Assembly: GCA_964016885.1 (NCBI GenBank)
Contig: CAXHJY010000279.1
Location: 1 to 64,000 of the forward strand
Source of the DNA: Eledone cirrhosa
Taxonomy: Eukaryota
Length of the DNA stretch: 64,000 nt
Direction of reading: 5' to 3'
The translations under genes were made by a program, and so were the position numbers. Shown piece after piece: positions 16,264 through 59,938 of this stretch; the first letter of the stretch is position 1; each line of letters begins with the position of its first letter. The notes under the pieces were generated by a model. That model saw only the letters and a program-made list of their open reading frames with translations. It was not told the origin of the DNA and made no database searches.

Positions 16264-16401
16264 ATATAACATGTTACAAAGGTACCGGTATGACCTACAA
16301 AGGTCACTTCAATTTCACAAAATCCAAGTACCCCTGTCAAAATTGGAGTCTACAAACCCCGCACAAGCACAATTTCAATGTTGCCAACAGTACTCAATTA
16401 G
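16264..16401 (+). CDS. Ror: ROR-like gene exon: N-terminal (extra) kringle, first half (DITCYKGTGMTYKGHFNFTKSKYPCQNWSLQTPHKHNFNVANSTQL)
   Basis: ttccag acceptor, GTAAGG donor, 138 nt, phase 1-1; kringle signature CY-x-GxG-x2-YxG...CQxW...PHxH. Assignment to the Ror transcript is inferred from frame continuity. Confidence 0.85.
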
Positions 16402-16805
16402 GTAAGGATTGAATCTTATTGAATCTTACTAACAAACTTCAATTTTTTTAAAGGATAACATAATAGTTGTGTGTATTGTGTGTGTGTGTGTATTGTGTGT
16501 GTGTCTGTGTATTGTGTGTGTCTGTGTGTGAGTGTGTCTGTGTATTGTGTGTGCGTACGTTTTCAACCCCCAAAAGAAGGTTCTATACAGTCACTTGAAC
16601 TACTAAAGACAAAAGCTATATATATATATGTGTGTGTGTGTGTGTGTGTGTGTGTGCACCACCATCTTTGTGTGTGTGTATATATATATATATATATATA
16701 TATATATATATAAGCAGAAGGGATATTCAATTTGTTGGTAATTCAACAAATATAAATGTTTATAACTGATTCAGAGCACTCAACAGTTTTTCTGGAGTAT
16801 AATAT

Positions 16806-17142
16806 ACAATGATATTAAATAAATGGAAACTATATTTATAAAACCAGATTTATTCTATTATATATATTTCCAGGGTACCAAAATGTTGGTACGCTATCAT
16901 CAGATAAAATACGAAGTGTGTTTTATAAATTTTGACATAACCAAGGAGAATATACCTTAACGGTTCAAATTATCCCTGGATAGTCTATCCAGGGTTAGTT
17001 ATCAAGTTATATCAAAATTTATAAAACACACTTCGTATTTTATCTGATGATAGCGCACCAAACTTTTGGTTCCCTTGAAATATATATAATAGAATAAATA
17101 TGGTTTTATAAATATAGTTTCCATTTATTTAGTATCATTGTA
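16806..17142. repeat. Fold-back inverted repeat of hammerhead family H1
   Basis: Arms about 125 bp; the spacer contains its own hairpin ccctggatag-t-ctatccaggg. Confidence 0.92.
17036..17096 (+). ncRNA. Type I hammerhead (family H1); inverted twin at about 16851-16911
   Basis: tattttat-CTGATGA-..caccaaa..tttggt..-GAAA-tatata-TA-atagaata. Confidence 0.75.
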
Positions 17143-18429
17143 TGTATGTATATATATATATATATATATATGATGTCCATATATATATATGACATCATGC
17201 AGGACTAAAAACAAAACCTGTCAAAGGGCAAAGGAGCTCTTAAGAGTCAATGGTCATCCAAAATTACCAGGAGAGGCAGAATTCTAGGAGAAGGAAAACT
17301 CTGATATAACACCTGCAACCCTGATGCTATCCAATGATGTTGACTTGTTCTTCTTTTTGGTAAATATCATCTTGGTTAAGAGAGTGGGACTGGCTTTGTG
17401 CAGTACCTTTGCTCACTATAAAAGCTTCACGGCACAGGCATTGTTTTATATCTGGAGATCTCTCTACACTTGTCGTCACATGGTACCATGGGCCCAGCAC
17501 TATGTGTCAATGATTGTCACAAGTGTAGTGTTTGTACCAGAGTTTTCAAGTCGCTGTCTGAACTAAAATGTCACACTCGTTCAACGCATCGGTAGGGGTT
17601 CTCCTACATGGATATAAAGTAGTGGCCGTACTTGAAAACGAGTTGGCAGCCGCCATATATGTATATATATATATATCATCTATTCAATTGTGTGTGTGTG
17701 TGTGTGTGTGTGTGTGTGTGTGTGTGTGTGTGTGTGTGTGTGTGCACCAGCATGTTTGTGTATGTATATATATATATATATGCATATATATATATGCACA
17801 AATATATATATATGCACAAATATATATATGCACATATATGTATATATATGCATATATATATATATATATATATATATATATATATATATATATATATATA
17901 TATATATATATATATATATATATATGCATATATATATATATATATATATATGTATATATATGAAGCTGAACCATCCAATATTTTCCCTCTTTGTTCTTCG
18001 GACTCTTGTTCCACACACACACAACACACACACACAGAGACACGCACACACACACACAGACATACACACACATACACATACATGTGCTGACATATGCTGT
18101 CACAGCAGCAATCTTAGAAACACCACATGTCTTTTAGTAGGGGTGGGTGGGTGGGTGGGCTAGATGTGGTTTCTGGGGATTTATGTTCCTAGGAAGGCAG
18201 GAGTGGGGGGGATGTGTAATGGGGAGTGAGGGTGAGGTGTTCAGTCTTCATAATCCTAGAACTAATTTGGTGTTCAGCAATTAAAGACTGCCCCCCCCCC
18301 CCCCCCCCGTTGTTCTTTTTCTTTCTCTCCTTCTCCTCTCCTTCTTCGCCTTCTTCTTCTTCTCCACCTCCTTCTCCCTCTCTTTCTTCTTCTTCTTCTG
18401 GATGGGTAGATAGACAGATAGACTGATGG

Positions 18430-19010
18430 TGGGATAAGGAGGCAGGCAGAGAGAAGGAGAGAGAGAAAGTGAAGATGTGGAAGAGAGAGAGAGATAAATA
18501 TATTGATAGAGTGAGGGTGGTTGAGAGAAAGATAGAGAGAGAGGATGAGAGATAAATATATAGACAGTGGTTGAGAAAGAGGGTAAGAGAGAGAGATATA
18601 GAGTGAGGGTGGGGAAAACGAGATAAATACAGAGAGTGAGGGAGAGAGAGAGTGGGGGTGGGGAAAAGAGAGATAGTGAGGGTGGGGGAAAGAGAGATAA
18701 ATACAGAGAGTGAGGGTGGGGGAAAAGAGAGATAAATACAGAGACTGAGGGAGAGAAAGATGAGAGAGAGAGAGTGGGGGTGGGGAAAAGAGAGAGAGAG
18801 ATAAATATATAAATAGATATTGAGGGTGGGGGAAAAGAGATATAAATACAGAGAGTGAGGGAGAGAAAGAAGATGAGAGAGAGTGGGGTGGGGAAAAGAG
18901 AGAGAGATAAATATATAGATAGGTAGTGAGGGTGGGGGAAAGAGAGATAAATACAGAGAGTGAGGGAGAGAGAGAGAGTGGGGGTGGGGAAAAGAGATAG
19001 AGAGAGGGTG
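18430..19010. repeat. GA-rich minisatellite (gagtgagggtgggggaaagagagataaata)
   Basis: Direct reading. Confidence 0.9.
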
Positions 19011-19144
19011 TTTAACCATTGTCCTGTGATTTATGGCAGTCTCTTATTCTAATCTTGATTATTACCATAACAACAACAACAATAATACACAGCTGCTGAT
19101 GCTGCTGCTGCTGCTACTACTCCTTCCTCTGCCTTCATATTATT

Positions 19145-58000: not shown

Positions 58001-59025
58001 ACTCCACACTCACTCATCCCACTAACACCCCTACTAATACACACACACACACACACACACACACACACACCCTCCTCACTCCAACTCTCACACCTACCCA
58101 TCCTCGCCTCCCTACCATTCCGCTGACTGCTGCTATGCCCTTCCGACCACTGTCTCAGCACCCACTGACCACAGCACTCCCACTGCTGACCACTTCCTGT
58201 TGCGCGCGCACCCCACATCTCTCCTCTTCCGACCACCGCTTCTTGGATTACCCACACGCGTTTTGACTTCCAACCAAAATCTCCATACATCCGTGTAACT
58301 TACCACTTTCAACCATCCTCTAACACCATCACCTATATAACTCACCCACACACGCATCCCAAAACAAATTTTTTTATCCACACGCCACCCACACCCACAA
58401 CACGCTTAAACCACACACACGTGCTTCCCACCACATATTTACACCCTCAGCCCCCTGATTCCTCTCCCCCCACCCCCTATTCACACACGCACAGACCCTC
58501 CGACACACAAAAACACCCCCCACACACACCTTCCTGAACATGCAACCCCGTTCTTCCCCCAACCCTCACTTTCACATACACACACACACACACACACGCA
58601 CACCTAACCACACACACCACCTTCAGCCCTCCCCGCTCGGACACCCCGTCTCCCTCTACCCACTCCACCCGCCTCCACCTCTACTCACCCCACACCCTTC
58701 CACCACCTGTTTACCCCCCTTTTAATTTCAGTTTATTTTGATCATGCCTTTATTTTTAAATGTTCTCATTCCTTGTATTTTGATCATGCTTTATTTTTAT
58801 TTATTATTTATTATATTTTTGTCTTTATTTGTTAATTTTTCATTCGCACCGTTTCCTTTCGCTATATGTCTCTCCACCACTCCCCTACACACCTTTTGAA
58901 CTCTTACCTGAAGAAGGGCTTATGCCCGAAACGTCGTCCTCCACCTACCCCCCACTCTCCTGAGCGTGAATCTAATAAACATTTGTCGTACTGCCTCTCT
59001 GTTCTGTCCCTGTTCAATTTTTTAT
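55081..59025 (+). mobile_element. Penelope-like element (RT + GIY-YIG endonuclease), C-rich, flanked by (TA)n
   Basis: LSRGLRF, IKPADKGGAVV, LPKLHK..PGRPIVS, LDIKSLYT, GVAMG, RYIDD, FLD, then NLVYGLRCTRC..YVGQTGR..R..EH; stop at 57560; frameshifts in C-runs; hammerhead core near the 3' end. Confidence 0.93.
58905..58938 (+). ncRNA. Minimal type I hammerhead ribozyme motif at the Penelope 3' end
   Basis: CTGAAGA-agggc-ttat-gccc-GAAAC-GTC; stem I is weak. Confidence 0.7.
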
Positions 59026-59126
59026 TATATATATATATATATATATATATATATATATGTATGTATGTATCTATGTATGTATGTATGTATGTATGTATGT
59101 ATGTATGTATGTATGTATGTATATAT

Positions 59127-59461
59127 GGAGGCACATCGCTTAGTGGTTAGAGCATTGGCCTTGCAATCGAAAGGTTGTGAGTTCAATTCTCAGACCGGGT
59201 CACGTGTTGTTTCCTTGAGCAAGACACTTTATTTCACAGTGCTCCAGTTTACTCAGCTGTAGAAATGAGATGATAGGGACTGGGGTCCATATCATTCCAC
59301 TGCAAAGTGGACGTGTAGGTGCCATGGAAGGAAAGCACCCAGCACTCACTGTAAATGAGGTTGGTGTTAGGAAGGGCATCCAGCTGTAGAAATCAAGCCA
59401 GAATCAGTTCCCGTCCCACCCTTGCAAGCAGGGAAAAGCGGACATAAAATGATGATGATGA
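59127..59461 (+). mobile_element. SINE family B full copy
   Basis: Near-identical to 62698-63042. Confidence 0.85.
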
Positions 59462-59833
59462 TATATATATTGTCATATTTTCCTGAGTCAGTTTTCTAGT
59501 TGTTGGTCCCTGCGGTTGGCTTACCGGTCGCTGTCTTCAATTTGCAAAGCTGTCTAAACGTAATATATATATATATATAAGTCTCTATCTATTTATCTCT
59601 GTCTCTCACTCTCTCTCTCTATCTCACTATCTCTCTTTCTCTATCTTACACTCTATCTCTCTCTGTCTGTGTCACTCTCACTCTTCTATCTCACTCAATC
59701 TCTCACTCTCTAACTTTCTCCCTTCTATGTTTTTGTCTCTCTCTCTCTCTGTCTATTACTCCCTCTTTCTCTCTCTCGACACACACACAGACACATATCA
59801 TTAATTAATTAAATGGTTTTTTTTCCTAATTAG

Positions 59834-59938
59834 GAGACCACAATTACTGCCGTAACCCCGGCAACACTGACCACGCCCCCTGGTGTTCACCTTAAACAGT
59901 CAGATTAAGATGGAAAGATGTGACATTCCTCGATTGTG
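59834..59938 (+). CDS. Ror: ROR exon: canonical kringle second half ([18 protein letters not shown][[14 protein letters not shown]]xDC), with compensating indels in this sequence
   Basis: AG/GTAAGA boundaries, 105 nt, phase 1-1; NYCRNP...PWC; as written it has TAA at 59893-59895 and the middle segment is kringle-like only in a shifted frame. Confidence 0.8.

What the first reader, a model, noticed from the sequence alone, without database searches (positions are those of the whole stretch)
16264..59938. ROR receptor with an extra N-terminal kringle (Kringle-Ig-CRD-Kringle), apparently from duplication of its own kringle exon pair
Seen: two + strand kringle exons (16264-16401, 24349-24453) splice in frame onto the ROR Ig exon (...CDIRNC-D-GFVEVNEPM). 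They share intron phases (1-1-1), split point (L/GDHN) and second-exon length (105 nt) with the downstream kringle pair (51754-51897, 59834-59938). Known: canonical ROR ectodomains are Ig-CRD-kringle with one kringle. Inference: exon shuffling gave this lineage a two-kringle ROR. The 243-nt module is phase-symmetric, so skipping it would regenerate the canonical receptor. I cannot tell whether this architecture is already annotated in molluscs.
Basis: partly seen in the sequence, partly recalled or inferred. Interest (0 to 1): 0.75.

Follow-up and report, generated by a model that had tools for sequence, protein, structure and literature searches.

The report
Three-kringle octopus ROR receptor
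This octopus gene encodes the ROR receptor with three kringle domains instead of the usual one, including one placed in front of the Ig domain; the extra copies likely came from the gene's own kringle exons and likely add binding surfaces to what is probably a Wnt receptor.

Summary
The extra N-terminal kringle is real, but the count is wrong: a third kringle lies 10 kb past the window end. The receptor is Kringle-Ig-CRD-Kringle-Kringle-TM-kinase, the only ROR found in this genome. 20 of 27 listed cephalopod-cluster proteins have this layout with the K1-Ig junction: 10 named Octopus/Argonauta models and 10 unnamed transcript contigs from a more distant lineage. None joins the leader to Ig. Of 81 other kringle+kinase proteins, 79 have one kringle, including all 10 named spiralian RORs. 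The three kringles share one internal intron position and fall inside the ROR kringle clade (97/94), though an AU test cannot exclude another origin for K1 (p 0.21). K1 is the best-conserved ectodomain module (87% across the deep split), so it is likely functional; it lacks the aromatic residue of lysine-binding kringles. As assembled, exon 59834-59938 carries an in-frame stop from two compensating indels, probably assembly error (untested). The layout is already in database models; I found no paper on it. ROR ectodomains were also remodelled in echinoderms and a hemichordate. Verdict: real lineage-specific variant of a known receptor, moderate interest.

The parts
2954..3000 (+). leader exon (phase 2 to 1), QSSFERDYHSSEEQI; the preceding coding exon lies on contig C365:20603-20698 (-)
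16264..16401 (+). kringle 1, first exon (138 nt, phase 1-1)
   Evidence: Pfam PF00051 36.9 bits
24349..24453 (+). kringle 1, second exon (105 nt, phase 1-1)
   Evidence: Pfam PF00051 43.4 bits
29818..29995 (+). Ig (I-set) exon 1 (phase 1-2)
   Evidence: Pfam PF07679 45.1 bits
31435..31541 (+). Ig exon 2 (phase 2-1)
33886..33921 (+). Ig-CRD linker exon, 36 nt (phase 1-1)
42456..42510 (+). Ig-CRD linker exon, 55 nt (phase 1-2)
43741..43859 (+). Frizzled-type CRD exon 1 (phase 2-1)
   Evidence: tblastn 97.5% to P0022
48431..48640 (+). CRD exon 2 (phase 1-1)
   Evidence: Pfam PF01392 33.5 bits
49424..49519 (+). CRD exon 3 (phase 1-1)
51754..51897 (+). kringle 2, first exon (144 nt, phase 1-1)
   Evidence: Pfam PF00051 43.1 bits
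59834..59938 (+). kringle 2, second exon (105 nt, phase 1-1); as assembled it holds an in-frame TAA from two compensating 1-nt indels
   Evidence: the three octopod orthologues used as queries are open here
59939..64000 (+). intron after kringle 2, running off the window. Beyond it on contig C306: optional 33-nt exon 70592-70624; kringle 3 exons 74510-74653 and 75386-75490 (phase 1-1-1); one 1679-nt exon 76081-77759 for TM helix, tyrosine kinase and tail

Best explanation
This is the genome's single detected ROR gene, laid out as Kringle-Ig-CRD-Kringle-Kringle-TM-kinase; its two extra kringles likely arose by copying ROR's own two-exon kringle module in a cephalopod ancestor, and the protein likely works as a Wnt co-receptor with a predicted active kinase, in which K2 likely keeps the ancestral job of packing against the CRD while K1 and K3 likely add protein-binding or clustering surfaces. 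Shown: exon layout, phases, three kringles, the same layout in 20 homologous proteins, one kringle in other named spiralian RORs, strong conservation of K1, intact kinase motifs. Inferred: ROR origin of K1 and K3 (about 85%), splicing in this very species (about 95%), assembly error in the K2b exon (about 90%), Wnt co-receptor role through the CRD (about 80%, from vertebrate work), K1 as a binding module rather than a spacer (about 60%).
For: Exons and phases. Same architecture in 20 of 27 listed members of two clusters, 10 of them Logan contigs of 3.9-6.0 kb that hold the whole ORF and so must be spliced transcripts, since the locus spans 75 kb. 79 of 81 non-cephalopod kringle+kinase proteins have one kringle. 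Kinase 82% identical to Lottia ROR; nearest paralogue in the genome 53%, beside an unsplit kringle, i.e. NRK/MuSK-like. Tree: K1, K2, K3 inside the ROR kringle clade, 97/94. Mean identity of K1 to ROR kringles 0.51-0.53, to NRK 0.43-0.45, to 52 other kringles 0.38-0.40. The three kringles share the phase-1 intron after the Leu codon; of the 4 other kringle loci found in the genome, 3 are unsplit and 1 is split at another position and phase. K1 87% identical between P0022 and P0001, versus CRD 78, K3 80, K2 82, Ig 73. K2 is closest to single ROR kringles (0.58-0.59). CRD and kringle form one unit, the kringle stabilises the CRD and the CRD carries WNT5A signalling (PMC11219042, passages). GxGxxG, VAIK, HRD, DFG intact against HKD/DLG in human RORs (PMC13259870, passages); CAM-1 kinase is active (PMC4100928, abstract).
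Against: No RNA from this species was seen. An AU test on 80 columns does not reject K1 grouping with non-RTK kringles (p 0.21), the free tree does not make the three cephalopod kringles sisters, and their monophyly is only narrowly not rejected (p 0.07). The first half of K1 scores as well on a plasminogen kringle (39 bits) as on ROR2 (38.6). As assembled, K2b has a stop. The full-length AlphaFold model left K1 unfolded (pLDDT 23-38) and K3 weak (34-58) while K2 folded (78-90); only 8 near-identical rows of 31 covered K1 and K3. No binding partner is known for the human ROR kringle (PMC9067376, passages), so the binding role is untested.
Confidence: 0.75

Rival explanations
1. K1 is the remnant of a tandem duplication of the whole Ig-CRD-Kringle block, after which the first copy lost Ig and CRD; it is not an exon pair inserted at a distance.
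For: The Ig-to-CRD block is also phase 1-1, so its loss keeps the frame. Block duplications exist in other RORs: Ig-CRD-Ig-CRD-K in 5 listed proteins (4 named echinoderms, 1 unnamed), Ptychodera CRD-K-Ig-CRD-K, unnamed P0216 CRD-K-CRD-K. The exon before K1 ends in SSEEQ, as does the Ig-CRD linker exon.
Against: No Ig or CRD remnant matched between 3000 and 16264 in tblastn rows over 55% identity; the two SSEEQ exons have different phases (2-1 and 1-2), so the echo may be chance.
Confidence: 0.35
2. K1 was captured from another kringle gene (plasminogen/apo(a)-like or other) by exon shuffling.
For: AU test does not reject it (p 0.21); K1 first half is divergent (0.44 to ROR kringles) and scores equally on a plasminogen kringle.
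Against: ML tree 97/94 with ROR kringles; best single-domain PDB hits of the second half are ROR1/ROR2 kringles (46 bits; HGF kringle 1 42); shared intron position not seen in the 4 other kringle loci found.
Confidence: 0.12
3. The extra kringles are mainly spacers or folding aids that lengthen the ectodomain, with no ligand of their own.
For: The ROR2 kringle stabilises the CRD and only the CRD is required for WNT5A signalling (PMC11219042); K1 lacks the aromatic residue of lysine-binding kringles. K3 sits between K2 and the membrane, where a spacer would lift the CRD.
Against: A spacer at the far N-terminus spaces nothing, and K1 is more conserved than the CRD across the deep split (87 vs 78%).
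Confidence: 0.3
4. The locus is a damaged allele or the K1 exons belong to a separate gene.
For: In-frame stop in exon 59834-59938 as assembled; no second copy of that exon found in the assembly.
Against: The other 15 exons are open with AG/GT ends; K1, CRD, K3 and kinase are 97-100% identical to O. vulgaris P0022; the two indels cancel within about 50 nt; K1-Ig junction in 20 homologues.
Confidence: 0.05

Closest known systems
ROR family receptor tyrosine kinases (human ROR1/ROR2, C. elegans CAM-1, Lottia and other spiralian RORs)
   Same: Ig, Frizzled-type CRD, kringle after the CRD, single TM, ROR-type kinase with YxxDYY, S/T/P-rich tail; kinase 82% identical to Lottia ROR
   Different: Three kringles, one N-terminal to Ig and two in tandem before the membrane; catalytic motifs intact unlike human RORs (shared with the other spiralian RORs checked)
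Octopus/Argonauta database models XP_014769992.1, XP_029651505.1, CAI9741306.1, GAB1602231.1
   Same: Orthologues with the identical K-Ig-CRD-K-K-TM-TK layout
   Different: Named only 'inactive ... ROR1(-like)'; the name says nothing of the layout, and 'inactive' is not supported by the motifs
Ambulacrarian RORs (Ptychodera CRD-K-Ig-CRD-K; echinoderm Ig-CRD-Ig-CRD-K)
   Same: Lineage-specific internal duplication of the ROR ectodomain; Ptychodera also has a kringle before its Ig. Variability N-terminal to CRD-kringle is described (PMC2772990, passages)
   Different: They duplicate the CRD; none has a kringle as first domain or tandem kringles; presumably independent events
NRK/MuSK receptors
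   Same: CRD, kringle and related kinase
   Different: Separate paralogue in this genome (C13, 53% kinase identity, unsplit kringle); NRK-like kringles lie outside the ROR kringle clade
Plasminogen/HGF/apo(a) multi-kringle proteins
   Same: Tandem kringles as repeated modules
   Different: K1-K3 lack the aromatic residue of the R-Y/W-x-x-C motif; tree places them apart

Membership tests
ROR receptor family | Ig domain before the CRD | tested here: met
   Pfam I-set 45.1 bits on exon 29818-29995; second exon
ROR receptor family | Frizzled-type CRD followed directly by a kringle | tested here: met
   Pfam Fz and Kringle; orthologue P0022 matches ROR2 CRD-Kr 9FSE at E 8e-73
ROR receptor family | Single TM helix and ROR-type tyrosine kinase domain with YxxDYY | tested here: met
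   best kinase-only PDB hits ROR1 409 and ROR2 378 bits versus MuSK 324, Trk 303 (orthologue P0022); 82% to Lottia ROR
ROR receptor family | S/T/P-rich cytoplasmic tail | tested here: met
   by inspection of the translation
ROR receptor family, canonical architecture | Exactly one kringle, membrane-proximal | tested here: not met
   three kringles; this is the variant feature, orthology rests on the kinase and CRD
ROR receptor family | Function in WNT5-type signalling through the CRD | not testable with these tools
   inferred from PMC11219042
ROR pseudokinases (human ROR1/2 type) | Degenerate Gly loop, HKD and DLG motifs | tested here: not met
   GEGAFG, HRD, DFG present; human motifs from PMC13259870 table. 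Activity itself untested
ROR-derived kringle (for K1) | Groups with ROR kringles | tested here: inconclusive
   ML 97/94 for, identities and intron position for; AU test does not reject the alternative, p 0.21
Lysine-binding kringles (plasminogen type) | Acidic pair after CRNP plus Arg and aromatic residues before the fifth Cys (role of these residues recalled; acidic site also in PMC9067376) | tested here: not met
   K1 has an acidic loop and Arg but Lys and Ile where plasminogen kringles mostly have Tyr/Trp and Tyr/Phe/Leu; Gly in place of the first Asp in octopus

The most novel reading that the evidence does not exclude
Coleoid cephalopods rebuilt their only ROR into a three-kringle, kinase-competent receptor whose N-terminal kringle, under stronger constraint than the Wnt-sensing CRD, binds a cephalopod-specific partner or clusters receptors in trans; it would be a natural handle on the unanswered question of what ROR kringles bind.
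Probability: 0.3. Interest if true: 0.65.

Novelty: new variant of a known kind. Interest (0 to 1): 0.38.

Why it matters
ROR kringles have no established ligand (PMC9067376, passages) and their role in dimerisation lacks structural support (PMC13259870, passages). A lineage that kept three diverged copies, the free N-terminal one best conserved, separates the CRD-stabilising role (K2) from any other role and makes it testable by domain swaps. It is also a candidate cephalopod-specific change in a conserved developmental receptor. Tempering this: the layout already sits in database models, ROR ectodomains have been remodelled in other lineages, and no function is shown.

Tried and rejected
RNA evidence in this species: no RNA holder listed; a lay over the K1-Ig region returned no result, so the 24453-29818 junction is untested in this species; 0 contigs of 3 runs lay on the K2b exon, so the indels are untested. 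Full-length AlphaFold model: mean pLDDT 58.8, pTM 0.36, K1 and K3 poorly modelled with shallow alignment; not used for packing claims and no fold search run. No complex prediction sent: K1 with CRD would pass by likeness to 9FSE. Near-equal intron lengths inside K1 (7947) and K2 (7936) as a sign of recent duplication: rejected, only one 131-nt match, in a stretch also hit in a control intron; kringle exons are 50-68% identical in DNA. Order of duplication: AU tests for K1+K2 (p 0.20), K1+K3 (0.25), K2+K3 (0.24), all three (0.07) reject nothing. The 92-row tree did not finish in careful mode (quick tree, ROR/NRK side support 63); the 40-row tree kept 40 of these 92 rows, chosen by me, dropping long-branch and redundant rows. 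Search for shorter cephalopod fragments gave one unnamed piece: no Nautilus, named squid or cuttlefish sequence. Signal-peptide exon not found on C365 or in window 1-17000. Earlier scan findings: none. Two papers asked for by recalled ids (a ROR review, the octopus genome paper, the latter by two ids) were not held.
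Full report
Setting. The window is bases 1-64000 of contig C306 of a 3.0-Gb animal genome. Its proteins are 97-100% identical to Octopus vulgaris ROR in K1, CRD, K3 and kinase, so it is an octopus (inference).

Observation. Both proposed exons exist with AG/GT ends and phase 1-1-1, and each half passes Pfam's kringle cut-off. A DNA search finds the first exon once in the genome. tblastn with three named orthologues located 16 coding exons from 2954 to C306:77759. 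The order is leader, K1 (2 exons), Ig (2), linkers (2), CRD (3), K2 (2), an optional 33-nt exon, K3 (2), and one exon for TM, kinase and tail. The coding exon before the leader is on contig C365 and ends in phase 2, matching exon 2954. The signal-peptide exon was not found; orthologues P0021 and P0022 have a hydrophobic N-terminus. Exon 59834-59938 contains an in-frame TAA as assembled, from a lost and a gained base that cancel. All other exons are open, so assembly error is likely; it is untested.

Is K1 spliced into ROR? Of 31 members in the two clusters found with the K1 exon, 27 were listed. 20 of 27 are K-Ig-CRD-K-K-kinase with the K1-Ig junction; 4 are kinase-only pieces, 2 start at the CRD, 1 is an Ig fragment; 0 of 27 join the leader to Ig. 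Ten full-length ones are named models of O. bimaculoides, O. sinensis, O. vulgaris and Argonauta. Ten are unnamed Logan contigs of 3.9-6.0 kb; a 75-kb locus cannot fit there, so they are spliced transcripts. That cluster is further from Octopus (73-87% per ectodomain module) than Argonauta is (85-97%), so it is likely squid/cuttlefish or another non-incirrate coleoid; this is inferred, not named by any search.

How widespread? From the best 120 of 677 hits and the best 150 representatives, 81 non-cephalopod proteins have kringle and kinase. 79 have one kringle; the two exceptions are Ptychodera (CRD-K-Ig-CRD-K) and unnamed P0216 (CRD-K-CRD-K). All 10 named spiralian RORs (six gastropods, a chiton, Owenia, Lingula, Tubulanus) are Ig-CRD-K. 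The four named echinoderm RORs are Ig-CRD-Ig-CRD-K. No bivalve or Nautilus ROR was among the named rows. The 81 include NRK/MuSK-like proteins and fragments, so this is a sample, not a census.

Origin. In a 40-row tree (80 columns) K1, K2 and K3 each form a cross-species clade and all lie in the ROR kringle clade at 97/94, apart from NRK-like and plasminogen/HGF/apo(a)-like kringles. They are not sisters in the free tree, and no AU test rejects anything, including K1 with non-RTK kringles (p 0.21). Identity favours ROR origin (K1: 0.51-0.53 to ROR, 0.43-0.45 NRK, 0.38-0.40 others). So does intron position: all three are split one base after the same Leu codon, whereas three other kringle loci found in the genome are unsplit and the fourth is split elsewhere in phase 0 (the family search is a lower bound). 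K1 and K2 share L-GDHN and their second exons are 68% identical against 55-59% for pairs with K3, a weak hint that K1 came from K2. The copies are old: 46-53% protein identity to each other, no intron homology between K1 and K2. Phases cannot tell exon-pair insertion from block duplication with loss, since the Ig-CRD block is also 1-1.

How it likely works. It is the only ROR-type kinase found in the genome; the next hit is 53% identical and sits beside an unsplit kringle. In human ROR2 the CRD and kringle form one unit, the kringle aids folding, and the CRD alone is required for WNT5A signalling (PMC11219042, passages; Drosophila Nrk, bioRxiv 2021.04.29.442059, passages). K2 follows the CRD and is closest to single ROR kringles, so it likely keeps that role. 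K3 would lift CRD-K2 off the membrane by one domain. K1 has no CRD next to it yet is the most conserved ectodomain module (87% vs CRD 78%), which points to a binding surface. It is probably not a lysine-binding kringle: the aromatic residue after Arg is Lys (the role of that residue is recalled). Kringles have been proposed to drive ROR dimerisation, without structural support (PMC13259870, passages), and no partner is known (PMC9067376, passages). The kinase has GxGxxG, VAIK, HRD and DFG; the 7 other spiralian RORs checked also keep GxGxxG, HRD and DFG, so the database word 'inactive' is unsupported; CAM-1 is active (PMC4100928, abstract only). The AlphaFold model folded Ig, CRD, K2 and most of the kinase but not K1 or K3, where the alignment was shallow.

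Literature. Eight searches for this layout (ROR with two kringle/mollusc, kringle/octopus, kringle domains/cephalopod, architecture/evolution, kringle/squid, Ror2/cephalopod/Wnt, duplication/exon shuffling, three kringle) listed no paper whose title or abstract start concerns it; I read passages of one, PMC2772990, which says ROR ectodomains vary N-terminal to CRD-kringle and that Lottia and Capitella are canonical. Subscription papers and the supplements of cephalopod genome papers were not seen and could mention it.

Verdict. Real, conserved, lineage-restricted three-kringle variant of ROR, present in database annotations, undescribed in the papers searched, function untested. Interest 0.38.

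Noticed in passing
window 29818-31541: The Ig domain is only 83% identical to O. vulgaris P0022 while K1 is 99% and the CRD 100%: the Ig evolves much faster than its neighbours.
   Followed up: partly
window 2954 acceptor; P0006, P0009, P0020, P0001, P0021, P0022: At least three different N-termini join at this exon in homologues; one short start (MWYxLPW) without a hydrophobic stretch is shared by O. vulgaris P0020 and the distant P0001.
   Followed up: partly
L016 (C365:20603-20698, -): The upstream exon carries RTKR, a possible furin site (recalled motif), followed by an acidic Tyr/Ser-rich stretch before K1.
   Followed up: no
window 2954-3000 and 42456-42510: Both exons end in SSEEQ with an 11-nt DNA match; phases differ, may be chance or a trace of block duplication.
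   Followed up: partly
L002 (C306:70592-70624): Optional 33-nt phase 1-1 exon between K2 and K3; its junction motif is in 6 and the direct K2-K3 motif in 14 of 27 listed proteins; changes the K2-K3 linker by 11 residues.
   Followed up: partly
L003:2081-3759 (C306:76081-77759): TM, kinase and tail are one 1679-nt exon; the tail has two polyglutamine runs (8 and about 14 Q) longer than in P0001 and P0002.
   Followed up: no
window 41333-36105 (-): Long ORFs in the linker intron resembling a non-LTR retrotransposon (ORF1-like with Cys/His knuckle, endonuclease-like, reverse-transcriptase-like, broken by stops); by eye, not scanned.
   Followed up: no
window 52466-53449 (+) and 54925-57160 (+): Two further reverse-transcriptase-like ORFs inside the K2 intron; not scanned.
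   Followed up: no
L012 (C13:10769112-10772258, -): NRK/MuSK-like paralogue with an unsplit kringle and a kinase 53% identical to this ROR.
   Followed up: partly
P0039, P0216, P0149, P0047/P0048/P0054/P0074/P0077: Other remodelled ROR-like ectodomains: CRD-K-Ig-CRD-K (Ptychodera), CRD-K-CRD-K and Ig-CRD-K-Ig (unnamed), Ig-CRD-Ig-CRD-K (echinoderms).
   Followed up: partly
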